A stretch of 64,000 nt of DNA, taken from an uncultured Chloroflexia bacterium. GTDB taxonomy: Bacteria > Chloroflexota > Limnocylindria > Limnocylindrales > CSP1-4. The stretch spans positions 160,001-224,000 of the forward strand of contig CAVVCZ010000002.1 of the NCBI GenBank assembly GCA_963746845.1. Direction: 5' to 3'. A program made the position numbers and the translations under genes. Under the pieces are notes generated by a model. That model did no database searches, was not told the origin of the DNA, and saw only the letters and a program-made list of their open reading frames with translations. Shown here in pieces: positions 27,798-39,040 of the stretch (position 1 is its first letter; every line of letters starts with the position of its first letter).

Positions 27798-30887
<3,090 letters not shown>

Positions 30888-30906
30888 CCTAACGGTCCGT
30901 CCGCGA

Positions 30907-30977
30907 GAAATAACGGAGCGGCGCGCCCGGAATACCGGCGCCTCTCGATGCGCATGGGGCGCGCTCGGCCGCACGGT
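30907..30977 (+). promoter_or_regulatory. Activator-dependent promoter P2
   Basis: GAAATAACGG at 30907, CGATG at 30946, CACGGT at 30972. Confidence 0.55.
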
Positions 30978-31024
30978 CGGCTCATCACCCGACGACCCTG
31001 TCGGTGGAGCCGGAGACCATCGAG

Positions 31025-31219
31025 ATGAACCCGCTGATGACGATCGACCTGGGGGCGCTGCATCGCCAGGACCTGCTGGCCGAGGGCGCCTGCTCCCATC
31101 TGATCCCGTCCACCGAGCGGTCCGCGGAGTCGACCCCGCGACGCCTGCTTGCCGTCCTGCGCCGGATCCCGGGCGCGCCGAGCGTCCACGTCCCGCGGAT
31201 CCGCCCGGTCCGGAGCTGA
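31025..31219 (+). CDS. Small protein (64 aa), paralog-like to 27566-27751
   Basis: MNPLMTIDLGALHRQDLLAEG...; GGAG RBS. Confidence 0.55.
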   Translation: MNPLMTIDLGALHRQDLLAEGACSHLIPSTERSAESTPRRLLAVLRRIPGAPSVHVPRIRPVRS

Positions 31220-31298
31220 TCGGATGCCCCATGTTCCGGAGGCCCCCATGTCAGCCCGGCCCGCGGGCGCCGGCCCGTAGAGCGAGAGATGGCCCACG

Positions 31299-31413
31299 GA
31301 GAACACCGCCGGGGGTCCACGTCCGGAACATCATCGGCAAGCTGGGGGCGAGTGGCCCGATCGAGGCCGCCGCGATCGCCCACCGGGCCGGGCTCGTGTC
31401 GCTCACCGTCGAA
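31299..31413 (+). pseudogene. Remnant of a second LuxR HTH C-terminus
   Basis: ENTAG(+1 G)VHVRNIIGKLGASGPIEAAAIAHRAGLVSLTVE mirrors the end of the LAL gene; no start or upstream domain. Confidence 0.7.
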
Positions 31414-31478
31414 CCTGACGCGGCACCCGGCGGGCGGCCTCGGATAGAATCGCCGCCATCGCCGCCAGGAGGCCGTTC

Positions 31479-32654
31479 GTGCTCGACCAGACCGCCAGCC
31501 CGTCCGCCAGCCGGCGGATCTTCCGCTCGAAGGTCGATGACCTGCGCCCCACGTACGGGTTCGAGGACGTCTCCCTGGCCCCTGGCACGGACACCATCGA
31601 GCCGGCCGACGTCGAGCTCGACGGGGTGTTCTGCGGCGTCGAGCTCGCCATCCCGATCCTCGCCGCGGCGATGGATGCCGTTGTGGACCCGGCGCTGGCC
31701 GGTCGTCTGGCGGGCCTCGGCGGGCTGGCGTTCCTCAACCTCGAGGGTGTCCAGACCCGCTACGACGACCCGACCGCGATCCTCGCCCGGATCGCGGCGG
31801 CGCCCGACGACGAGGTCCACGACGTCCTCGCCGCGGCGTACGCCGAGCCCATCCGCGAGGAGCTCATCGCCCGACGGATCGCCGAGATCCACGACGCGGG
31901 CTCGAAGGCCGCGGTCGCCGCGACCCCCGGCGCCGCGCGCCGGTTCGGGCCGTTCAGTGCCGAGCACGGCGCGGACCTGTTCCTCGTCCAGAGCCAGGTC
32001 TCGAGCGCCCGCCACCTGGCCTCAGGCTACGATCCGCTGTCCCTCGACGAGTTCACCCGGTTCATGCCGATCCCCGTGGCGGTCGGCAATACGACGAACA
32101 GCGCCGCCGCGTTCGCGCTGATGGAGCAGGGTGCGGCCGCCGTGTTCGTGGGCGTCGGGCCGGGCGCGGCCTGCACGACGCGCGAGGTGCTCGGGATCGG
32201 CGTCCCACAGGTCACCGCGATCAGCGACGTGGCCGCGGCCCGGGACAGCTACTTCGCCGAGACCGGCCGGTACGTGCCGATCGTCGCCGACGGCGGGATG
32301 CGCCGCGGCGGCGAGCTCGCCAAGGCGATCGCCGCGGGCGCCGACGTCCTGATGATCGGGTCGCCTCTCGCCCGCGCCGAGGAGGCGCCCGGCCGCGGCA
32401 CGAACTGGGGGATGGCCGCGCCCTCGCCGACGCTGCCACGCGGCACCAGGATCAAGGTCGGGACCGTCGGGACGCTCGAGCGGATCCTGCTGGGCCCGGC
32501 CCACGTCACGGACGGGTCCGAGAACCTCGTCGGCGCGCTCCGTCAGTCGATGGCCGCGCTCGGCGCCCGAACGATCCGCGACCTCCAGCGGGTCGAGATG
32601 ATCCACGCCCCGGCGGTCAGCACCGAGGGCAAGTCCTGGCAGCGAGGTCGCTGA
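31479..32654 (+). CDS. GuaB3-family IMP dehydrogenase-related protein
   Basis: YGFEDVSLAPG, PILAAAMD, GVGPGAACTTREVLGIGVPQ, IVADGG; AGGAGG RBS and TAGAAT -10 at 31445. Confidence 0.92.
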   Translation: MLDQTASPSASRRIFRSKVDDLRPTYGFEDVSLAPGTDTIEPADVELDGVFCGVELAIPILAAAMDAVVDPALAGRLAGLGGLAFLNLEGVQTRYDDPTAILARIAAAPDDEVHDVLAAAYAEPIREELIARRIAEIHDAGSKAAVAATPGAARRFGPFSAEHGADLFLVQSQVSSARHLASGYDPLSLDEFTRFMPIPVAVGNTTNSAAAFALMEQGAAAVFVGVGPGAACTTREVLGIGVPQVTAISDVAAARDSYFAETGRYVPIVADGGMRRGGELAKAIAAGADVLMIGSPLARAEEAPGRGTNWGMAAPSPTLPRGTRIKVGTVGTLERILLGPAHVTDGSENLVGALRQSMAALGARTIRDLQRVEMIHAPAVSTEGKSWQRGR

Positions 32655-32667
32655 GCCGGCCTGGGCG

Positions 32668-33042
32668 ATGGACGACGACCTCGTCCGGGACGGCCGGTAC
32701 GCCCGGCTGGAGATCCGCGGTCACCGTTCGGGTCTCCCGCGTCCGGTGACCGTCGGGTTCGTGGACCGGCCGGACGGCACCATCGTCGTCGCGGCGCGCG
32801 CCGACCAGACGGCCTGGGCCCGGAACCTCGAGGCCGACCCGGAGGTCCTCGTCACGATCGGGACCGACGCGGTGCGGGCGACGGCCGAGCTGCTGGCAGA
32901 TGACGACCCGCGCCGGCCGGCAGCGATCCGCGACCTGATCCTGCGCTATGGCACGCCGTCCGAGGGCCTGGGTCGGGGCCCGGTGTTCGTCCTCACGACC
33001 GCGCCGCCCGCCGGCGACCCCGATCACGCCGCGGCCGGGTGA
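32668..33042 (+). CDS. Nitroreductase/deazaflavin-dependent (Ddn-like) family protein
   Basis: RGHRSGLPR, WARNLEADPEV, PVFVL. Confidence 0.75.
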   Translation: MDDDLVRDGRYARLEIRGHRSGLPRPVTVGFVDRPDGTIVVAARADQTAWARNLEADPEVLVTIGTDAVRATAELLADDDPRRPAAIRDLILRYGTPSEGLGRGPVFVLTTAPPAGDPDHAAAG

Positions 33043-33046
33043 TCCA

Positions 33047-33114
33047 TACGTCATCCGTCGCACGAACCACCGTACGTCCGGACGATGGCCGGACGGGACC
33101 TCGACCGGCAGCAT
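33047..33114 (+). promoter_or_regulatory. Activator-dependent promoter P3
   Basis: TACGTCAT at 33047, CGATG at 33083, CAGCAT at 33109. Confidence 0.55.
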
Positions 33115-33156
33115 GTGAACCACGGCACCTGCCGATCGCCCTCAAGGGATGGACCG

Positions 33157-33279
33157 ATGGACCCGCTCGGGACCCTGATCGTGTCACTGGGAACGCTGAT
33201 CGTCCTCGATCTCGCTGCGCTTCAGCTCGGCGGACCGCGACGCTCGCGGAACCGATCCCGAAGCGTTCGCTCGCGCTGA
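33157..33279 (+). CDS. Small single-TM peptide (40 aa) with basic tail
   Basis: MDPLGTLIVSLGTLIVLDLAALQLGGPRRSRNRSRSVRSR; purine-rich RBS. Confidence 0.55.
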   Translation: MDPLGTLIVSLGTLIVLDLAALQLGGPRRSRNRSRSVRSR

Positions 33280-33415
33280 CGGTCGTTCCTCCACGACCGG
33301 CACAACTGAATAGACGCCGACCCTCGAGGGTCTCCTCCCTCCTCCCCCTCGATCGCCGGCCGACCTGATCGAAGCGGCGCCGCCCTCCTCCTCCCGGCGC
33401 CGCTTCGACGTTTCT
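33280..33415 (+). ncRNA. Candidate 3'-UTR sRNA with three UCCUCC-loop hairpins and an ACAACUGAAUA motif
   Basis: Stems 33280-33299 (loop TCCTCC), 33324-33352 (loop TCTCCTCCCTCCTCC) and a perfect 14-bp stem 33369-33408 (loop CCCTCCTCCTCC) followed by GTTTCT. Confidence 0.6.
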
Positions 33416-33577
33416 CCCGCCTTCCGTTCGCGACCGAGAACCGTTTCGTCGTCGGCGACTCCATGATGTCCGACGGGGCCGTGACGGCCGGCAACGACAA
33501 GCCACCACACGACGTTCCCCGGCGGCGGTTCCCGGACCCGGCACCGGGTCGCCGCCGGCACATCTTCCCGCCGCCGC

Positions 33578-33645
33578 TACGTCATTCGGCGTACGTCGGT
33601 CGCCGTCGTCCGTCGGTGGTCGTCGTGGGGCACCTGTCCTAGCGT
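33578..33645 (+). promoter_or_regulatory. Activator-dependent promoter P4
   Basis: TACGTCAT at 33578, CGGTG at 33614, TAGCGT at 33640. Confidence 0.55.
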
Positions 33646-33651
33646 CTCGTC

Positions 33652-33785
33652 GTTGGATCCGTGGCAGCCAGAACCCGACCAACCCCTACCCATGACAACT
33701 GAAGAACAACCGAAGAACAACCGAAGAGCGTTGCAGCAGCCAAGCGGCCGGACTGTCGGATCCACGACGGGCCGGTCGTTCGGTG
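33652..33785 (+). ncRNA. Candidate stand-alone sRNA with triple ACAAC[T/C]GAAGA repeat
   Basis: Follows P4; repeat at 33694-33727; GC hairpin 33743-33780; no credible ORF. Confidence 0.55.
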
Positions 33786-33796
33786 TCCGGCGCGGA

Positions 33797-34687
33797 TCAG
33801 CCCTCGATCAGGGCCCGCGCTCCGTCCACCAGCTCCGGCTGGGCGCGGCTCGCAGCGAGCCGGCGCAGAAACTCGGGCCAGCGCGGGTTGACCGCGGTCG
33901 CCTCGGCGAGCAACGCCTGCGCCGGCTCGACCAGTCCGGCGCTCGCCATCCCGATCGCTCGCCAGACGAGGACCTGGGCGTCGCCGGGGGCGAGCCGCGA
34001 GGCCTCCTCCGACGCGCGACCGGCGCCTTCCGCGTCACCGGACCGGCCCAGCTCCTCGGCCCGGTCGAGCGCCTCGAACCCGAGCTGGAGCCGGGTCAGC
34101 CGCTCGAGCTCGTCGAGGGGCGCCGGATGATCGTCGACCCGGATGTCGAACGACCGCGTCCAGCCCGGCTCGTCCGGCGTCCCGGACACGATCAGGGCGG
34201 CCGCCTGCCGGCCCCGGATGTCGCCGCCCTCCCGTTCCGCCGCGCGGAGCGCCGCGAGCAGGCGATCCACGAACGAGACCGCCGGCTCCGCCCAGGCGGC
34301 GAGCATCGCCGCGGGGACCGTCGAGCGCTCCATCATGTTGGCCTGGATCGCCACCCCGTCGGCGGTGAGGTGGCCCGCCGCCTCGACGCACGCCGAGCCG
34401 GTCCAGGAGGCCGTCCGGCCGCTCGCGTCGACGATCCCGACCTGGCGGACCTCGCGACCCGGGTCCGCGTCGAGCACCCGGCCCAGCGCGTCCGCTGCCG
34501 CGACGCCGGCCCGCAGGAGGGCCAGGCCGTCCGGGCCATGCGCGATCTGCGTGAACGACTGGGTGGCGACGGCCCCGACCCCGGATTCCATCCACGGCAC
34601 TGAGGCGCCGACGAACGGCCAGCACGTCTGGACGGCGACACCGAAGCGCCCCGTCGCGGGATCGCGGGCGACGATCGAGTAGGTCAT
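33797..34687 (-). CDS. DUF1028 (Ntn-hydrolase-like) protein with C-terminal TPR-like helices
   Basis: MTYSIVARDPATGRFGVAV, GAVATQS, RQVGIVD, GGDIRGRQAAAL, IRVDDHPAP. Confidence 0.9.
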   Translation of the reverse strand: MTYSIVARDPATGRFGVAVQTCWPFVGASVPWMESGVGAVATQSFTQIAHGPDGLALLRAGVAAADALGRVLDADPGREVRQVGIVDASGRTASWTGSACVEAAGHLTADGVAIQANMMERSTVPAAMLAAWAEPAVSFVDRLLAALRAAEREGGDIRGRQAAALIVSGTPDEPGWTRSFDIRVDDHPAPLDELERLTRLQLGFEALDRAEELGRSGDAEGAGRASEEASRLAPGDAQVLVWRAIGMASAGLVEPAQALLAEATAVNPRWPEFLRRLAASRAQPELVDGARALIEG

Positions 34688-34745
34688 CTGGCTGCCTCCG
34701 CTGGGCGCTCGTGCGTCGAACGACCCGTCATGAACGGCCCTCGCA

Positions 34746-34812
34746 TACGTCATCGGTCGTAACGCGGCCATGGCAGGTGCCGATGCCGCCGCCGTCCGGC
34801 CGGTCCTAGTGT
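34746..34812 (+). promoter_or_regulatory. Activator-dependent promoter P5
   Basis: TACGTCAT at 34746, CGATG at 34781, TAGTGT at 34807. Confidence 0.55.
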
Positions 34813-34868
34813 GCTCGCACGAGGACCGCAAGGGCCGGTCCACCGCTCGGAGAACGGAGTCGCACACC

Positions 34869-35081
34869 ATGGACAGCCAGCAGGTCATGCATGAGGCAGG
34901 AGACCGGGGCCGTCGTGGGTGCCTCGTGGAGGGATGTCCGTGCAAGGACGCCAGGATCGTCTCCATGCGCCGGGCCGCCTTCTTCGCCGCCTGGGCCCGG
35001 AACCGGGGCGAGACCGCCGACCGCTTCGTCTCGCCTGAGGCCGGCTGGCGGATCCCGACCCTCATTCCCTCGGCCGCCTGA
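34869..35081 (+). CDS. Small Cys-containing protein (70 aa)
   Basis: GGAG RBS; GCLVEGCPCKDARI motif. Confidence 0.6.
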   Translation: MDSQQVMHEAGDRGRRGCLVEGCPCKDARIVSMRRAAFFAAWARNRGETADRFVSPEAGWRIPTLIPSAA

Positions 35082-35131
35082 CGAATTCTCAGAGACCTCG
35101 CAGACGACGACCGGACGATCGCCCTGCGTCC

Positions 35132-35165
35132 GACAACTGAAGAACAACCGAAGAACAACCGAAGA
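35132..35165 (+). repeat. 34-bp triple repeat identical to 33694-33727
   Basis: G-ACAACTGAAGA-ACAACCGAAGA-ACAACCGAAGA, flanked by hairpins at 35112-35132 and 35176-35211. Confidence 0.9.
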
Positions 35166-35275
35166 CGCCACTCCCGAAACGACCGGCCGCCGCCAGCGAG
35201 CCGGTCGTCTCAATTCCCGGCCCCGCGGGAGCCGTCGAGACGGCCCGGGCGGTCGGCCGGGTGACCCGGGGCGGC

Positions 35276-35342
35276 ATCGTCATCCGTCGCCCCGTGGCGT
35301 CGCCGTCCGCCGATGGTCGCCCGCGTGGTCGCCGACGAGGAT
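35276..35342 (+). promoter_or_regulatory. Activator-dependent promoter P6
   Basis: ATCGTCATCCGTCGC at 35276 (cf. TACGTCATCCGTCGC in P3), CGATG at 35311, GAGGAT at 35337. Confidence 0.5.
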
Positions 35343-35389
35343 CAGGGTCGCCAGCAACCGCCATCCGGCGCCACTCGGAGACGACCCAC

Positions 35390-35833
35390 ATGTTTCGCGG
35401 ATCCCGCCTCGCGGCCTCGTTCCTGCTCGTCCTCACCGGTCTGACCGCTCTCGCGACCGCCCTGTTCGTCGTGCCGGCGGCCGTCGGGGCCGGCGGCGGG
35501 CGGTGGCTGACGCCGGTCGTCCTCTTCCTCGCGATCCTCCACTTCGTCGCGCTCGTCGGCATCTACCGCGGGCGTGACTGGGGCCGCAACCTCGCGGTGT
35601 TCGTGGCCGAGCTCGGCGGCGGGATCGCGATCCTCGGCGCCATCTCGCTGCTCACCGGTGCCCATCCGTTCGGCGCCGACAGCGCGACGGGCCTCGGCCT
35701 GATCGCCTGGTCCGCGGGTGTCTACGCGCTGCTCGGGATCGCGGCCGGCCGGATCCCGGTCCTGTCGCGACTGACCCCGATCGAGCGCCGCCGGGTCGTC
35801 TTCGGCCCGAGCTTCGCCGGCATCGTCCGCTGA
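35390..35833 (+). CDS. Hypothetical 4-TM membrane protein
   Basis: GGAG RBS and four hydrophobic segments. Confidence 0.7.
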   Translation: MFRGSRLAASFLLVLTGLTALATALFVVPAAVGAGGGRWLTPVVLFLAILHFVALVGIYRGRDWGRNLAVFVAELGGGIAILGAISLLTGAHPFGADSATGLGLIAWSAGVYALLGIAAGRIPVLSRLTPIERRRVVFGPSFAGIVR

Positions 35834-35892
35834 CGCGAGGTGCGGCGCGGCCGGCCGGGGGGGACCGGGCCGGTGCCCCGTAGACTCGGCGG

Positions 35893-36276
35893 GTGACCGA
35901 CGAGCCGACCCTCTTCGACGCCGCGGGCGGCATGCCGTTCTTCGAGGCCCTCGTCGGGCGGTTCTACGAGGGCGTGGCGGTCGACCCGGTCCTGCGACCG
36001 CTCTACCCGGAGCCGGATCTTGCCGGCGCTCGTCACCGGCTGACCCTGTTCCTCGCCCAGTACTGGGGCGGCCCGACCACCTACGACGCCGAGCGTGGTC
36101 ACCCACGGCTCCGGATGCGCCACGCGCCGTTCGCCATCGGTCCGACGGAGCGTGATGCGTGGCTCGTCCGGATGCGCGAGGCGGTCACCTGGTCCGAGCC
36201 GCCGGCGCCGGTCGCCGCGCGGCTCCTCGCCTACTTCGACATGGCGGCGGAGGCGATGCGCAACCGCGACGGGTAG
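35893..36276 (+). CDS. glbO: Group II truncated hemoglobin (GlbO-like)
   Basis: FLAQYWGGPTTY..RGHPRLRMRHAPF, ERDAWL. Confidence 0.92.
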   Translation: MTDEPTLFDAAGGMPFFEALVGRFYEGVAVDPVLRPLYPEPDLAGARHRLTLFLAQYWGGPTTYDAERGHPRLRMRHAPFAIGPTERDAWLVRMREAVTWSEPPAPVAARLLAYFDMAAEAMRNRDG

Positions 36277-36315
36277 CGGACGGCTAGACTGGGTCGAAGC
36301 GACGAGGAGGGCGGA

Positions 36316-38085
36316 TTGACGGAGGCGGACCAGGAGCCATCGACCCCGGCCGCCGCGACCGGCCGACCGCCGAGGGAGCGCGGCAAGACCGTCCACGGTG
36401 AGCCGGCGAACGCGGGGCATCGCGTCCTCGCCCCGGACGATGCCGAGGTCGAGGCCTATCTCGAGACCGCCCTCAAGGCGCCGATTCCCACCCGCTCGGC
36501 CGACGACCGCCCCGACGTCGGTGAGCCCGATTCGGTCGTCGTCCTCGACTTCGGCAGCCAGTTCGCCCAGCTCATCGCCCGCCGCGTCCGCGAGCTCAAC
36601 GTCTACTCCGAGCTCATCCCCCACGACACGCCGTGGGCCGAGATCGAGCGCCGCCGGCCCAAGGCGATCATCCTCTCCGGCGGCCCGAACTCCGTGTACG
36701 ACACCGACGCCCCGAAGCCCGACGCGGGCGTCTGGTCCGGCCGGATCCCGGTCCTCGGGATCTGCTACGGCGCCCAGCTGATGGCGAGCGAGCTCGGCGG
36801 CGACGTCGTCGCGACCTCGAAGCGCGAGTACGGGCCGGCAACCGTGACCATCACGGACGCGGACGGGCTGTTCACCGGCCTCGATCGCGACCAGCCCGTC
36901 TGGATGAGCCATGGCGATTCGATCACCCGGCTCCCCGAGGGCTTCCGCTCGACCGCCCAGACCGGCTCGTCGCCGTTCGCCGGTCTCGCCGCCCCGGACC
37001 GGAACCTGTACGGGATCCAGTTCCATCCCGAGGTGGTCCACACCCCGGCCGGCCGCGACGTGCTGCGCAACTTCGTGCTCGGCATCGCCGGTGCCTCGCC
37101 GACCTGGACGCCAGCGAACTTCATCGAGCAGACGGTCGCCGAGATCCGTGGGCGGGTCGATGCGCACGCGGCGGCCACGGGCTCCGACGGGCTCGTGATC
37201 TGCGCCTTGTCCGGCGGCGTGGACTCCGCGGTCGCGGCGGCTCTCGTCCATCGGGCGGTCGGGGATCGGCTGACCTGCATCTACGTCGACCACGGGCTGA
37301 TGCGCAAGAAGGAGTCGGAGCTTCTGCGCGAGACGTTCGCCGAGCACCTCGGGATGCGTCTCGTGATGGTCGACGCGCGCGAGCGGTTCCTCGCCCGGCT
37401 CGCCGGTGTCGAGGACCCGGAGCAGAAGCGGAAGATCATCGGGGACGAGTTCATCCGGGTCTTCGAGGAGGAGTCGCAGAAGCTCGGGCGGATCGACTTC
37501 CTGACCCAGGGGACGCTCTATCCGGACGTCATCGAGAGCGCGACCGCCGAGACGAAGGCGGCCCAGAAGATCAAGACCCACCACAACGTCGGCGGGCTGC
37601 CGGCCGACCTGCGGTTCCAGCTGATCGAGCCGCTCCGGTATCTGTTCAAGGACGAGGTGCGCGCGGTCGGGCTGGAGCTCGGCCTGCCCGATGCGATCGT
37701 CCTCCGCCAGCCCTTCCCCGGACCCGGTCTGGCGATCCGGATCATCGGCGAGGTCACCGCGGAGCGGCTCGACACCCTTCGCGAGGCCGATTGGATCGTC
37801 ATCGACGAGATCAAGGGGGCCGGGCTGTACCGCTCGCTGTGGCAGTCGTTCGCGATCCTCACGCCGGTGCGGAGCGTCGGCGTGATGGGCGACGGCCGGA
37901 CCTACGCGAACGTCGTCGCCGTCCGGGCGGTCACGTCGGAGGACGGGATGACCGCCGACTGGGCGAAGCTCCCGTACGATGTGCTCGCAACGATCTCCAG
38001 CCGGATCGTCAACGAGGTCGCGGGCGTCAACCGGGTCGTGTACGACATCTCGTCGAAGCCCCCCGCCACGATCGAGTGGGAGTAG
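36316..38085 (+). CDS. guaA: GMP synthase (glutamine-hydrolysing) with ~70-aa N-terminal extension
   Basis: [44 protein letters not shown]. Confidence 0.98.
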
Positions 38086-38144
38086 GAGTCGGCCCCTCGC
38101 GCCCGTCGCGTTCCCCTCGCGGGCCGTCGTTTCCTCCCGGGTCG

Positions 38145-38312
38145 GACATGCATCGCAGTGCTGGATCGGAGCCTGTGTGACGCGTTGCCTGCCAATTCGC
38201 CACCGATGGGGCGGCCTCCCACGCTCGGGACAGCGTGGACGTACCCCGGCGCCCCACCCCGCGCCGCCCAAACCGTTGCGGAAGCCCGTCGCGTAGCACT
38301 GCGGCGCAAGTC
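38145..38312. repeat. 168-bp intergenic element with 18-bp imperfect terminal inverted repeats
   Basis: GACATGCATCGCAGTGCT vs the reverse complement of the right end, GACTTGCGCCGCAGTGCT (15/18). Confidence 0.55.
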
Positions 38313-38413
38313 GGGGGCGGTTGCGGGCGCGACAGCCGTGACCCCAGCACAGCCGCCCGTACTAGGCCGTTCGGGGGGTTCGCGTGCGATGTGCACCCGT
38401 TATTGTGTGCCGC

Positions 38414-39040
38414 ATGTCGGACGACGCCTCCACGGCTGCCCTGCCCGAGCCTCGCTGCACCTGGTGTTCGGCGGTGCTGCCGCCGGACCACGGAGCTACC
38501 TGCCCGTCATGTGGCGCCACCCTGATCGGTGACGGCGAGCCGGCCGTTCCGGGCCTCACCGCGCTCGATGCCGACGCGATCCTCCGCAATGCCCGTGGCG
38601 GCAGCAAGCCGAAATCGCGCGGCCGCCTGCTCGGGTGGATCGGCGGCGACTACGAGACCGAGACCGGTGAGAAGTCGCCTCCCGGGTCGCTCGCGCCGCC
38701 GCCCGTCGAGGTCCGCCGCGAGATGCTCCGCCTCGAGCTCGAGGCGCAGGTCGCGAACGCCCAGGCCGAGGTCGAGGCCATGGCCGCCGACGCCGCGATC
38801 GAGTCCGGCGTCCCCCTGAAGTCGATCGAGCAGATGGTCGAGGCCGCCGACGTCGCCGACGGGATGGACCCGAACGCGGCCGCACAGCTCGCGCCACTCG
38901 CAGCGGCCCCGGCCGAAGCGGCCCTCGGGGTCGAGGCGGCCTCCGTCGCCGGCGCCGAGGACTCAGCCGACGCCGAGCCGGCACCCGAGGCCGAAGCCGA
39001 GCCTGCCGCCGCCGAGACCGACAAGGCACCGTCCGCCTGA
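38414..39040 (+). CDS. Zinc-ribbon protein with coiled-coil and acidic tail
   Basis: CTWC...CPSC; TATTGT -10 at 38401. Confidence 0.7.
   Translation: MSDDASTAALPEPRCTWCSAVLPPDHGATCPSCGATLIGDGEPAVPGLTALDADAILRNARGGSKPKSRGRLLGWIGGDYETETGEKSPPGSLAPPPVEVRREMLRLELEAQVANAQAEVEAMAADAAIESGVPLKSIEQMVEAADVADGMDPNAAAQLAPLAAAPAEAALGVEAASVAGAEDSADAEPAPEAEAEPAAAETDKAPSA

What the first reader, a model, noticed from the sequence alone, without database searches (positions are those of the whole stretch)
33694..35165. Identical 34-bp A-rich triple repeat (ACAAC[T/C]GAAGA x3) in two separate transcripts: possible protein-sponge RNA
Seen in sequence: GACAACTGAAGAACAACCGAAGAACAACCGAAGA occurs at 33694-33727 and 35132-35165 with otherwise unrelated flanks. 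A single variant, ACAACTGAATA, is at 33302. All are on the + strand, sit in stretches bracketed or followed by GC hairpins, and lie downstream of one of the shared promoters. Such A-rich sequence stands out in this GC-rich DNA. One copy is stand-alone and two are in 3' UTRs of small ORFs. Inference: multivalent single-stranded binding sites for an RNA-binding protein, analogous in logic to CsrB/RsmZ GGA repeats but with a different motif. A DNA-binding array is an alternative, since the 11-bp period is about one helical turn.
Basis: partly seen in the sequence, partly recalled or inferred. Interest (0 to 1): 0.8.

Follow-up and report, generated by a model that had tools for sequence, protein, structure and literature searches.

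The report
Repeated A-rich RNA tag from rRNA leader
An 11-base A-rich RNA word that normally sits beside the ribosomal-RNA anti-termination signal also heads riboswitch leaders throughout this uncultured Chloroflexota family, and here it is stacked in tandem at the ends of two small transcripts, which may soak up or recruit an RNA-binding factor.

Summary
The 34-nt triple repeat is at 33694-33727 and 35132-35165, with a single unit at 33302. Shuffles expect 0 matches.

The unit ACAAYYGAAKA is a conserved sense-strand RNA word in a family of Candidatus Limnocylindrales (Chloroflexota):
- It directly follows the boxA core in 30 of 30 rRNA leaders.
- It forms the predicted 5' end of 30 of 30 top-scoring SAM-I riboswitch leaders.
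- It occurs in TPP and rpsA leaders and in CCUCC-loop sRNAs.

Tandem arrays of 2 to at least 11 units lie in 3' UTRs of a small Cys-rich protein gene family. Each is followed by a hairpin that keeps pairing through compensatory changes. Exact unit dimers occur in 53 of 401 genomes of the order, and the reversed control gives 0. Nothing in Rfam matches.

Best reading: a single-stranded binding site for a conserved RNA-binding protein, with arrays acting as multivalent decoys or recruiters. NusA is the leading candidate, because in E. coli the equivalent position binds NusA. The binder and the sponge action are inferred, not shown. RNase Y/E targeting and S1 binding remain live rivals. No RNA run was listed, so expression could not be checked.

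The parts
33048..33060 (+). Shared upstream word ACGTCATCCGTCG, copy 1, about 95 nt before the 40-aa ORF. Probably a regulator site or part of a promoter.
   Evidence: exact match; sequence
33157..33279 (+). Small hydrophobic ORF (40 aa, MDPLGTLIVSLGTLIVLDLAALQLGG...). The same ORF precedes the single unit in relatives.
   Evidence: (L042, L049); no Pfam family
33302..33312 (+). Single unit ACAACTGAATA. It is predicted unpaired, between a small hairpin and two hairpins with CCUCC-rich loops.
   Evidence: the same layout in 12 sites of the genus
33316..33418 (+). Two hairpins with C-rich loops (CCUCCCUCCUCCCCC and CCCUCCUCCUCC). The second, at 33371-33406, is followed by GACGUUUCUCCC. This looks like a CcsR1/6C-like sRNA or 3' UTR module.
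   Evidence: z = -4.8; CcsR1 match is sub-threshold, 17.3 bits against a gathering score of 65.3
33579..33591 (+). Shared upstream word, copy 2 (ACGTCATTCGGCG)
33640..33645 (+). -10-like TAGCGT, about 50 nt after the shared word and about 48 nt before array A
   Evidence: read from sequence; not found by the consensus scan
33694..33727 (+). Array A: three units (33695, 33706, 33717), with no ORF in front of it in this genome
   Evidence: syntenic arrays of 2 to at least 11 units in relatives
33743..33780 (+). GC-rich hairpin after array A, preceded by the conserved GCGTTGCAGCAGCC
   Evidence: conserved in L043, L046, L047, L048
34747..34759 (+). Shared upstream word, copy 3 (1 mismatch), followed by the -10-like TAGTGT at 34807-34812
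   Evidence: sequence
34869..35081 (+). Conserved 70-aa Cys-rich protein gene (MDSQQV..GRRGCLVEGCPCKDARIVS.RRAAFFAAWA..GETADR..W..). Array B lies in its 3' UTR.
   Evidence: 28 invariant columns in 13 sequences; no Pfam family
35132..35165 (+). Array B: three units (35133, 35144, 35155), identical in sequence to array A
35176..35211 (+). Terminator-like hairpin GAAACGACCGGC...GCCGGTCGTCTC followed by AATTCC
   Evidence: 9 conserved pairs, of which 3 have compensatory changes, in 24 sequences
35277..35289 (+). Shared upstream word, copy 4 (1 mismatch), about 100 nt before a 147-aa membrane-protein ORF (35390-35833)

Best explanation
ACAAYYGAAKA is a single-stranded RNA recognition word for a conserved RNA-binding protein of the transcription or RNA-processing machinery. 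Its ancestral place is the rRNA leader, immediately 3' of the 8-nt boxA core. In E. coli that segment (the rrn 'spacer', or boxA-boxC linker) is contacted by NusA, and in the cryo-EM model also by SuhB. This family of Limnocylindrales reuses the word in three other settings: as the first 11 nt of attenuator-type leaders (all top-scoring SAM-I riboswitches, part of the TPP riboswitches, and a cobalamin-like leader), near the 5' end of the rpsA leader, and in front of CCUCC-loop sRNAs. In the window the word is multiplied three-fold at the 3' ends of two short transcripts, just upstream of stable hairpins. My commitment is that the binder is NusA through its KH1-KH2 domains. Single units would load or hold NusA on nascent leaders that end in weak-U-tract intrinsic terminators. 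The arrays would give multivalent binding, acting as decoys that compete with the single sites when their regulated promoters fire, and at least as high-avidity recruiters at their own terminators. Shown: sequence, conservation, strand bias, position relative to boxA, to -10 boxes and to aptamers, predicted single-strandedness, and covariation in the 3' hairpin. Inferred: transcription, the transcription start at the motif, the binder, and the titration effect.
For: (1) Non-random and orientation-specific. There are 7 units in the window against 0 expected. The genome holds 12 exact units and the reversed control 0. For the relaxed motif, 16 of 19 hits lie in non-coding DNA, against 3 of 6 for the reversed control.
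(2) Conserved. 23 of 24 other genomes of the genus have the unit. Exact unit dimers occur in 53 of 401 genomes of the order and in 0 of 42 of the sister family, and the reversed control gives 0 everywhere.
(3) rRNA link. 30 of 30 rRNA leaders of the order read GCACCTT[A/G]-ACA[A/G]NTGAAGA-GTG. The g5/g6 leaders share TTAACAATT with the E. coli rrn boxA-spacer oligo of PMC2724277 Table 1. NusB-NusE read only 8 nt of BoxA (PMC3177189). E. coli NusA-SKK binds the spacer ACAAUUUA, and M. tuberculosis NusA KH domains bind boxC-derived oligos in extended form (PMC2724277). The boxA-boxC linker is contacted by NusA and SuhB in the rrnEC structure (PMC8632103).
(4) Leader usage. In the 30 top-scoring SAM-I aptamers from 30 genomes of 14 genera, the motif lies between -2 and +3 nt of the aptamer start: 26 exact, 3 with one mismatch, 1 with two. 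A -10-like hexamer lies roughly 6 nt upstream (5-8 in the printed rows). For TPP leaders the counts are 5 of 30 exact and 14 of 30 with up to 2 mismatches. These leaders end in hairpins with tails such as UCUCGAUUUCC, the same type as after array B.
(6) The nusA leader itself starts with a related word (CAAYYGAAY) in loci of g1, g5, g8, g12 and g16, followed by a conserved terminator. That is the layout expected for NusA autoregulation.
(7) The own NusA has NTD, S1 and KH domains and aligns to the chain of the M. tuberculosis NusA-RNA complex entries 2ASB/2ATW at E = 5e-60.
(8) Units are predicted unpaired, next to hairpins. The variable positions are 5, 6 and 10, which leaves two constant blocks, ACAA and GAA.A. 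That pattern suits two adjacent 4-nt-reading domains.
(9) Array A survives with its promoter-like region although its ORF is lost here. This argues that the array RNA has a role of its own.
Against: There is no expression data and no binding data. The papers that define the M. tuberculosis NusA site (PMC1276712, PMC420393) were not held, so a direct sequence comparison with that site could not be made. The nusA-leader word is only 7 of 11 identical to the motif in this genome, and it is diverged in g3, g4, g6 and g7. The best-conserved protein-gene site is in the leader of rpsA, not nusA (13 of 27 loci), which favours S1 on autoregulation logic. Reported E. coli NusA-spacer affinities are weak, 14-137 uM. 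NusA is present in the sister family too (14 of 14), yet that family's 5 examined SAM riboswitch leaders lack the motif. The motif is not universal in leaders: 0 of 15 lower-scoring SAM riboswitches have it, and only about half of the TPP leaders do. Arrays are common only in the genus (18 of 19) and patchy elsewhere. Their copy number changes by recent slippage, with identical 25-nt super-repeats in L044 and L045. Multivalency may therefore be tolerated rather than selected.
Confidence: 0.38

Rival explanations
1. RNase entry or cleavage word. The motif is the preferred single-stranded site of the decay-initiating endonuclease (RNase Y, or an RNase E/J-type enzyme). At leader 5' ends it would start turnover of terminated riboswitch fragments. 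In front of the CCUCC-loop sRNAs it would release the sRNA from the mRNA. In the rRNA leader it would be a processing site. As an array upstream of a 3' hairpin it would be a tunable instability element for the small-protein mRNA.
For: Known RNase Y sites are single-stranded, AU-rich and next to secondary structure. RNase Y starts turnover of B. subtilis SAM riboswitches, and only when SAM is bound (PMC3997798 passages and Table 2). The motif is an A-rich unpaired island between hairpins in a 71% GC genome. RNase Y is present in 61 of 61 genomes searched. The lower-scoring SAM riboswitches that lack the motif start instead with a small 5' hairpin, the classic protection against 5'-end-dependent decay. 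One genus has the motif between the SD and the start codon of rny itself (L131).
Against: Mapped RNase Y/E sites are degenerate. Here 8-9 of 11 positions are nearly invariant across genera, which looks more like specific binding. The own rny leader lacks the motif. Cleavage within the first 11 nt of a transcript is an unusual route. The sister family has RNase Y (14 of 14) but no motif on its 5 examined SAM leaders. Array A is kept without an ORF to destabilise.
Confidence: 0.2
2. Ribosomal protein S1 is the binder. S1 would bind the word in its own leader for autoregulation, in the rRNA leader, and in other leaders. The arrays would then titrate S1.
For: The rpsA leader carries a strongly conserved variant, ACAGCTGAAGA, after a -10 box and a small hairpin in 13 of 27 loci, from g1, g4, g5, g8, g12 and g16. 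The sister family's rRNA leaders use the same variant. S1 binds A/U-rich single strands and autoregulates rpsA in E. coli; this is established knowledge that I recalled. A report that S1 binds boxA RNA is also recalled only; I could not verify it.
Against: None of the 14 other rpsA loci, including those of g3, g6, g14 and g15, has a match with at most 1 mismatch. S1 is not known for 11-nt sequence specificity. A translation-linked factor gives no obvious reason for a site upstream of transcription-terminating riboswitch aptamers or in rRNA.
Confidence: 0.12
3. Only the single sites are functional. The arrays would be slippage-prone expansions of one 3'-UTR unit with little or no added function, a neutral or nearly neutral microsatellite-like growth.
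For: Copy number runs from 2 to at least 11, with perfectly identical 25-nt super-repeats in L044 and L045. Arrays are near-universal only in one genus. The 100% identity of arrays A and B in this genome, with different flanks, suggests recent conversion.
Against: Arrays persist at two syntenic positions across the genus (15 fetched syntenic loci) and after 32 of the 80 best relatives of the small gene. Units inside arrays keep the same invariant positions as single sites. Array A is retained after loss of its ORF.
Confidence: 0.1
4. DNA-level element. The word would be bound as double-stranded DNA by a regulator, given the 11-bp period, or read on the non-template strand by an RNAP-associated factor, as ops is read by RfaH.
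For: The period of 11 bp is about one helical turn. The position at +1 to +11 of many promoters could suit a repressor or an initiation or escape signal. An ops-like non-template-strand element would also be orientation-specific.
Against: The same word occurs at about +45 in rRNA leaders, where it is part of the leader-trailer RNA helix. It also occurs after 5' hairpins, in predicted loops, and in 3' UTRs next to RNA hairpins that covary. It is asymmetric and always in the sense orientation wherever a neighbouring RNA can be named. In the genus set those are the 28 arrays, 17 SAM-I, 12 CCUCC, 8 leader-X, 5 rRNA and 1 TPP site of 91. This classing is partly by construction, because classes were defined on the same strand.
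Confidence: 0.05
5. Base-pairing target. The word would pair with a trans-acting RNA or with the rRNA trailer, and the arrays would be sponges for that RNA.
For: In the rRNA leader, TGAAGAGTGACAGG pairs with the 16S trailer CCTGTCACTCTTCA. One genome of another genus has a transcript that starts with the motif and carries a CU-rich tract..ttcttcgttgtc.. (L138).
Against: No complementary cluster was found in the own genome. Both strands were scanned. Complements of 8 nt in the rRNA operon and of 7 nt in tRNAs are isolated hits in the rRNA operon and the common tRNA D-arm word. A purine-rich, G-poor 11-mer would give weak duplexes.
Confidence: 0.05

Closest known systems
rrn/nut 'spacer' (boxA-boxC linker) bound by NusA; boxC oligos bound by M. 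tuberculosis NusA KH1-KH2
   Same: Same place: immediately 3' of the 8-nt boxA core in the rRNA leader. It starts with ACAA as in E. coli (ACAAUUUA). It is single-stranded and part of the 5' strand of the leader-trailer helix, as boxC is in enterobacteria.
   Different: Here the segment is a sharply conserved 11-mer. It is reused without boxA at the 5' ends of riboswitch and other leaders, and it is multiplied in tandem in 3' UTRs. No such reuse or multiplication is described in the papers I read. Binding by NusA is untested.
Protein-sponge sRNAs: CsrB/RsmZ (GGA motifs, CsrA) and CrcZ (A-rich CA motifs, Hfq/Crc)
   Same: Several copies of a short unpaired motif on a small terminated RNA, with single copies of the same motif in the 5' leaders of other transcripts. 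Like CrcZ, the motif is A-rich and presented as a linear strand. The CrcZ features are recalled.
   Different: There is no GGA. Units are head-to-tail and are not displayed in hairpin loops. CsrA and Hfq were not found in the genome. There is no Rfam match. The single sites lie far upstream of ribosome-binding sites, in transcription-attenuating leaders and in rRNA, which points to transcription or RNA processing rather than translation control.
BoxA elements outside rRNA (E. coli/Salmonella suhB leader; Nus-factor autoregulation, PMC5725501)
   Same: An rRNA antiterminator-derived word is used in mRNA leaders to bring Nus-type factors to non-rRNA transcripts. There is a possible autoregulatory copy in a Nus-factor gene leader (nusA).
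   Different: Those elements are full boxA cores (GYTCTTTAANA) that bind NusB/NusE. Here the boxA core is missing from all non-rRNA sites, and only the flank 3' of it is reused.
RNase Y / RNase E cleavage sites in leaders (e.g. B. subtilis yitJ SAM riboswitch)
   Same: An unpaired A-rich stretch next to secondary structure in a SAM riboswitch leader.
   Different: Sequence conservation here is much stricter. The position is at the very 5' end. Tandem arrays are not a known feature of RNase sites.
CcsR1 / 6C-type sRNAs with C-rich loops (for the 33302 unit's host RNA)
   Same: Two hairpins with CCUCCUCCC-like loops followed by a terminator.
   Different: Scores are below the Rfam thresholds: 17.3 bits here and 31.3 bits in L092, against a gathering score of 65.3. 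The 5' A-rich unit is not part of those families.

Membership tests
boxA (NusB-NusE antiterminator site) | 8-nt core resembling GCUCUUUA (gamma-proteobacterial consensus GYTCTTTAANA) | tested here: not met
   The rRNA leaders do have GCACCTT[A/G]ACA just upstream of, and overlapping by 3 nt, the motif, which matches 8-9 of 11 positions of the consensus. The array units and the riboswitch, rpsA and sRNA sites have no such core, and in SAM-I leaders the predicted transcript starts at the motif.
boxA (NusB-NusE antiterminator site) | Located in the rRNA leader and in the 16S-23S spacer | tested here: not met
   This is true only for the rRNA copies (spacer copy in L142). The window's three sites are not in an rRNA operon.
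NusA-binding spacer / boxA-boxC linker | Lies directly 3' of the boxA core in the rRNA leader | tested here: met
   30 of 30 rRNA leaders of the order. The E. coli equivalent is ACAAUUUA.
NusA-binding spacer / boxA-boxC linker | Bound by the NusA S1-KH1-KH2 domains | not testable with these tools
   The own NusA has NTD, S1 and KH domains and aligns to the 2ASB/2ATW chain. No protein-RNA prediction or assay was available.
NusA-binding spacer / boxA-boxC linker | Sequence likeness to the experimentally defined M. tuberculosis NusA site | not tested
   The defining papers were not held and no held paper prints the oligo. Only the statement that an AUA trinucleotide is critical was seen. The ...GAAUA units contain AUA; the ...GAAGA units do not.
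CsrB/RsmZ-type CsrA sponges | Multiple GGA motifs, mostly in hairpin loops, and CsrA encoded in the genome | tested here: not met
   There is no GGA in the units. PF02599 was not found in the genome, which is 92% complete. No Rfam match.
CrcZ-type Hfq/Crc sponges | Several A-rich AANAANAA motifs (feature recalled) and Hfq encoded | tested here: not met
   Unit junctions read AAGAACAAC, so the resemblance is partial. PF17209 was not found in the genome.
Protein-sponge RNA in general (functional class) | Multivalent unpaired copies of a motif that also occurs singly in regulated transcripts, and an abundant RNA that titrates the protein | tested here: inconclusive
   Multivalency, predicted unpaired state and single sites elsewhere are met. 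Abundance and titration could not be tested.
RNase Y/E cleavage site | Single-stranded, A/U-rich, adjacent to secondary structure; cleaved by the enzyme | tested here: inconclusive
   The structural features are met. Cleavage is not testable here.
Any Rfam 15 family | Covariance-model match at or near the gathering score | tested here: not met
   The E-value scan of 30000-39000 returned only sub-threshold hits, the best being 22.7 bits against a gathering score of 55 (E-values 2 to 9.5). None overlaps the arrays.

The most novel reading that the evidence does not exclude
The 11-mer is the loading word of NusA, or of another rRNA-antitermination-complex protein. This Chloroflexota family has copied it from the rRNA leader onto riboswitch and attenuator leaders. 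The tandem arrays are regulated decoy RNAs that titrate that elongation factor, re-tuning rRNA antitermination and riboswitch termination genome-wide. That would be the first sponge RNA for a transcription elongation factor.
Probability: 0.15. Interest if true: 0.9.

Novelty: new variant of a known kind. Interest (0 to 1): 0.72.

Why it matters
If the reading holds, it shows a modular RNA 'address tag'. A segment of the rRNA antiterminator would be reused to mark riboswitch and attenuator leaders, and would be amplified into multivalent RNAs. That would link ribosome synthesis, metabolite-sensing attenuation and small regulatory RNAs through one protein.

It would also give a concrete, cheap test (an 11-mer RNA against three candidate proteins) in Limnocylindria, a lineage without cultured model organisms as far as I recall. 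It would extend the known range of Nus-factor targets beyond full boxA elements.

Even on the most modest reading, the motif improves annotation. It marks predicted transcript starts of SAM-I leaders and flags new non-coding RNAs in these genomes.

Tried and rejected
**Expression.** The look-up of sequencing runs listed no RNA holder. This says nothing either way about expression.

**Coding reading of the arrays: rejected.** The unit is 11 nt, copy number and 2-5-nt spacers vary between relatives, and the ATG in front of array A is absent in relatives.

**The 70-aa Cys-rich protein as the general binder: rejected.** The family was found in only 27 of 151 genomes of the order (0 of 17 in g3, 0 of 16 in g6). 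Motif-led SAM-I leaders occur in those and many other genera.
- Its fold prediction was uninformative (pLDDT 63.8, one helix).
- Pfam gave nothing. My first Pfam try, used a wrong frame for this protein.
- The Atlas gave nothing.

**Motif as part of the SAM aptamer: rejected.** The same word precedes TPP and cobalamin-like leaders, lies in rRNA and rpsA leaders, and forms arrays.

**RNase Y autoregulation.** The motif lies in the rny ribosome-binding region in one genus only (L131). The own rny leader has none.

**Phyletic discrimination between NusA and RNase Y: failed.** Both are present in both families.

**Complementary partner RNAs.** None of note was found.

**Consensus promoter/terminator scan.** It found nothing in 32900-35500. 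The hairpins lack long T runs and the -10 boxes lack a -35.

**Literature.**
- No paper in the searchable library holds the unit as an RNA element; the hits were primers.
- No NusA-sponge RNA appeared in the listing.
- Beuth 2005 and Arnvig 2004 were not held.
- The claim that S1 binds boxA could not be verified.
- Supplementary files were not consulted. The supplements of PMC5725501 (boxA lists) might bear on the boxA consensus outside gamma-proteobacteria.

**Papers seen.**
- Passages only: PMC2724277, PMC12127562, PMC3553938, PMC8632103, PMC5725501, PMC10250234, PMC3177189, PMC3997798.
- Search listings only: all others.

**Counts that include unpublished genomes.**
- G010 is: 23 of 24 becomes 22 of 23 without it.
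- G254 is: 53 of 401 becomes 52 of 400 without it.
- Their sequences were not read. L014 was skipped in the scripts.

**Rows dropped.**
- 31 matches were not listed.
- The first 50 kb of contig C6 were left out as a low-GC, foreign-looking region.
- Three rpsA loci (L296, L302, L311) were left out, so 27 of the 30 fetched loci were examined.


Full report
**Observation.**
- The 34-nt string GACAACTGAAGAACAACCGAAGAACAACCGAAGA occurs at 33694-33727 and 35132-35165 on the + strand, with unrelated flanks. ACAACTGAATA is at 33302.
- The degenerate unit ACAACYGAAKA has 7 exact matches in the window, all on +. Dinucleotide-preserving shuffles gave 0.00.
- The window is G000:C2:160001-224000 of a 3.56-Mb, 71% GC, 12-contig genome.
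- Genome-wide there are 12 exact units and none for the reversed pattern.
- With the relaxed pattern ACA[AG]N[CT]GAANA there are 19 hits, 16 of them in DNA that fails a GC3 coding test. The reversed control has 6 hits, 3 of them non-coding (the low-GC first 50 kb of contig C6 were left out).
- Both arrays and the single unit are predicted unpaired, and each is followed by a stable hairpin.

**Taxon.** Record titles of relatives found with the neighbouring small protein name Chloroflexota, mostly 'Candidatus Limnocylindrales'. In the coded taxonomy the genome is genus g1 of family f1. The sister family f2 has genomes of about 1.1 Mb.

**Where else the unit occurs in this genome.**
- One exact copy lies about 80 nt upstream of the 16S rRNA, right after GCACCTTG (contig C4).
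- One copy directly precedes a SAM-I riboswitch, confirmed by Rfam at 69 bits (contig C8).
- One-mismatch copies precede a second SAM-I riboswitch (C9) and a TPP riboswitch (C4).
- One one-mismatch copy lies near the 5' end of the leader of rpsA, the gene for ribosomal protein S1.
- In the SAM-I and TPP cases a -10-like hexamer ends 6 nt before the unit, so the unit is predicted to be the first 11 nt of the transcript.
- These leaders end in hairpins with tails such as UCUCGAUUUCC.

**Conservation in the genus.**
- The exact unit is present in 23 of 24 other g1 genomes (22 of 23 without the unpublished G010). The reversed control is at or near zero (0 or 1 hit per strand per genome). In family f2, 5 of 16 genomes have a hit, at control level.
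- I fetched the listed sites; 31 matches were not listed by the tool. I classed 91 distinct sites or clusters by their downstream sequence:

| Class | Sites |
|---|---|
| Tandem arrays | 28 |
| SAM-I leaders (plus one more among 'other') | 17 |
| In front of hairpins with CCUCC-rich loops, as at 33302 | 12 |
| Unknown structured leader (gacgggacagccagagacagcctgcgcc...) | 8 |
| rRNA leaders | 5 |
| First codons of an ABC ATPase gene | 4 |
| Loop of a conserved hairpin element | 2 |
| TPP leader | 1 |
| Other (two are degenerate array remnants, several look coding) | 14 |

- The arrays sit at the two syntenic positions of the window. They have 2 to at least 11 units, the variants ACAACTGAAGA, ACAACCGAA[GT]A and ACAATCGAA[GT]A, and sometimes 2-5-nt spacers.

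**The rRNA connection.**
- In 30 rRNA leaders from 30 genomes of the order, the sequence GCACCTT[A/G]-ACA[A/G]NTGAAGA-GTG[A/G]CAGG is conserved. Per-position counts are A29 C29 A29 A24/G5 N T29 G29 A29 A29 G30 A29.
- The g5/g6 version shares nine consecutive bases (TTAACAATT) with the E. coli rrn boxA-spacer oligo printed in Table 1 of PMC2724277.
- In that paper boxA is UGCUCUUUA and the following 'spacer' is ACAAUUUA. The spacer binds the NusA S1-KH1-KH2 fragment, while boxA alone does not. The paper also reports that M. tuberculosis NusA binds boxC-derived oligos through its two KH domains in extended form, with an AUA trinucleotide critical.
- NusB-NusE recognise only 8 nt of BoxA (PMC3177189).
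- In the cryo-EM model of the rRNA elongation complex, the boxA-boxC linker is contacted by NusA and SuhB (PMC8632103).
- The unit is therefore the segment immediately 3' of the boxA core.
- In this genome it is also part of the 5' strand of the 16S leader-trailer helix: leader GCTGCACCTTGAC-aac-TGAAGAGTGACAGG pairs with trailer CCTGTCACTCTTCA-acg-GTCAAGGGTGCAGC. BoxC occupies the same strand in enterobacteria (PMC10250234).
- A second copy precedes the 23S rRNA in a g17 genome (L142).

**Use in leaders across the family.**
- For the 30 best RF00162 (SAM-I) hits, from 30 genomes of 14 genera of f1, the unit lies between -2 and +3 nt of the aptamer start in all 30. That is 26 exact, 3 with one mismatch and 1 with two. 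A -10-like hexamer lies roughly 6 nt upstream (5-8 in the printed rows).
- The 15 lower-scoring SAM riboswitches examined, 5 of them from f2, have no unit (0 of 15). They start with a small hairpin instead.
- For the 30 best TPP riboswitches the unit is exact in 5, within one mismatch in 8 and within two in 14.
- A cobalamin-like leader (g15) and another unknown leader (g3, g10) also start with it.
- The rpsA leader has ACAGCTGAAGA after TGnTAGACT and a small hairpin in 13 of the 27 loci examined, of 30 fetched.
- The nusA leader is strongly conserved: a -10 TATACT, a short variable word, GGCCGC, then the terminator ACGTGGGTGACCCCCACGT plus a U-run. Its variable word resembles the unit (CAAYYGAAY) in loci of g1, g5, g8, g12 and g16, but not in g3, g4, g6 and g7.

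**The arrays and their host genes.**
- Array B follows a conserved 70-aa protein with three invariant cysteines (CLVxGCxCKDARIVS...FF..W...GETA.R). It has no Pfam family.
- Of the 80 best relatives of this gene in one-genome-per-species contigs (97 were confirmed), 32 are followed within 260 nt by at least 2 units, with up to 7 counted there. More distant paralogs are followed by a membrane-protein gene instead.
- Array A follows a diverged paralog of the same family in four relatives (L042, L043, L044, L046). In this window that ORF is gone, but the promoter-like region, the array and the hairpin remain.
- After array B a 9-bp stem is conserved in 24 sequences, with compensatory changes. One pair is A-U in 14 sequences and G-C in 10.
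- Exact unit dimers occur in 53 of 401 genomes of the order (52 of 400 without the unpublished G254): g1 18 of 19, g5 13 of 71, g3 6 of 38, g22 4 of 5, g29 3 of 3, f2 0 of 42. The reversed control is 0 in every genome.

**What it most likely is.**
- These features together argue for a sequence-specific recognition site on single-stranded RNA:
  - strict sense orientation;
  - an unpaired setting next to hairpins;
  - two constant blocks (ACAA and GAA.A) around variable positions 5, 6 and 10;
  - occurrence in untranslated, structured, attenuation-type leaders and in rRNA.
- The positional equivalence to the NusA-contacted spacer, the NusA-type domain set of the own NusA, and the unit-like word at the head of the nusA attenuator make NusA my first candidate.
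- On that reading, single units hold NusA on nascent leaders whose regulation depends on weak-tailed intrinsic terminators. The arrays either recruit it to their own terminators or, when induced, compete for it.
- The four transcription units of the locus share the upstream word ACGTCATYCGKCG. This suggests common regulation of the array RNAs.
- None of these functional steps is shown. There is no expression or binding evidence.

**Rivals.**
1. **RNase Y/E targeting.** Known sites are unpaired, A/U-rich and next to structure, and RNase Y starts SAM-riboswitch turnover in B. subtilis (PMC3997798). An array upstream of a protective 3' hairpin would then be a tunable instability element. The very strict conservation of the word, and the survival of array A without an ORF, speak against this.
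2. **S1 as binder**, favoured by the well-conserved rpsA site.
3. **Arrays as near-neutral slippage products.**
4. **A DNA-level site.**
5. **A base-pairing target.**

NusA and RNase Y are present in both families, so their distribution does not discriminate. The small Cys-rich protein cannot be the general binder: it was found in 27 of 151 genomes, while motif-led leaders are family-wide.

**Comparison with known systems.**
- The element is not a boxA, because the core is missing outside rRNA.
- It is not a CsrB/RsmZ or CrcZ family member. There is no GGA, CsrA and Hfq were not found, and there is no Rfam match.
- It works like a protein-sponge RNA only in layout.
- It resembles the reuse of boxA in the suhB leader (PMC5725501), but it uses the flank rather than the core.
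- I found no description of this word, or of a sponge for a transcription elongation factor, in the searchable library. The two primary papers on the mycobacterial NusA site were not available.

**Verdict.** This is a real, conserved and previously undescribed RNA motif family with an unusual tandem form. The sponge idea is plausible but unproven. The link to the rRNA antiterminator is the main new result.

Noticed in passing
window 33048, 33579, 34747, 35277 (+): Four transcription units in a row share ACGTCATYCGKCG. It lies about 50 nt upstream of the -10-like TAGCGT/TAGTGT and about 95-107 nt upstream of the ORF or array start. The same word follows arrays in relatives, so it heads the next unit there. 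In the genome a tight regex gives 45 hits, most of them inside coding-looking DNA, with a handful of further intergenic candidates. This is probably a regulator site that defines a small regulon.
   Followed up: partly
window 33277-33420 (+): The 3' UTR of the 40-aa hydrophobic ORF folds into three hairpins with UCCUCC/CCUCCCUCCUCCCCC/CCCUCCUCCUCC loops (z = -4.8). These are anti-Shine-Dalgarno-like, resembling CcsR1/6C sRNAs, but score below the Rfam thresholds. The layout is conserved in at least 12 sites of the genus.
   Followed up: partly
G000:C4:841716-841830 (-), locus L143; relatives L145-L174: There is a very strongly conserved nusA leader: a -10 TATACT, GGCCGCYYC, the hairpin ACGTGGGTGACCCCCACGT and a U-run, then SD and GTG. 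It looks like an attenuator, perhaps NusA autoregulation. It was not scanned against Rfam here.
   Followed up: partly
G000:C4:1248600-1248800 (-), locus L285; relatives L286-L314: The rpsA (S1) gene has a conserved leader (TGnTAGACT, a small hairpin, ACAGCTGAAGA). The S1 protein carries a long N-terminal low-complexity extension rich in A/E/P.
   Followed up: partly
loci L016, L028, L030, L034, L041, L067, L069, L094 (genus g1): An unknown conserved structured leader follows the unit (..gacgggacagccagagacagcctgcgcccgcgg..ggccggggcttgatcc..). It has no Rfam family at E <= 0.05 and is a candidate new cis-regulatory RNA. A different unknown leader (gggacgagta..ggtgcgagccgg) follows the unit in g3 and g10 (L127, L135).
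   Followed up: no
G000:C6:1-50000: The first 50 kb or so of contig C6 are much more A/T-rich than the rest of the genome. This could be a foreign island or a mis-binned or chimeric contig. One exact unit there (C6:4971) is probably a chance match.
   Followed up: no
locus L138 (G149, genus g26): A transcript predicted to start with the unit carries a long CU-rich tract (ttccttctgttcttctcttcttcttccttcttcgttgtc) that is partly complementary to unit arrays. This could be an anti-array RNA in that genus.
   Followed up: no
loci L315-L329: A second, lower-scoring class of SAM riboswitch (cctatccagagcgcccgagag) in both families begins with a small 5' hairpin instead of the A-rich unit.
   Followed up: partly
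window 33797-34690 (-): A DUF1028 protein gene with a TPR-like tail lies antisense between the two array transcripts. Its 3' end is only about 20 nt from the hairpin after array A, so the transcripts converge.
   Followed up: no
G000:C7:19522-19689 (+): A second paralog of the 70-aa Cys-rich protein lies elsewhere in the genome, and no exact unit lies on that contig. Some relatives carry three or four paralogs.
   Followed up: no
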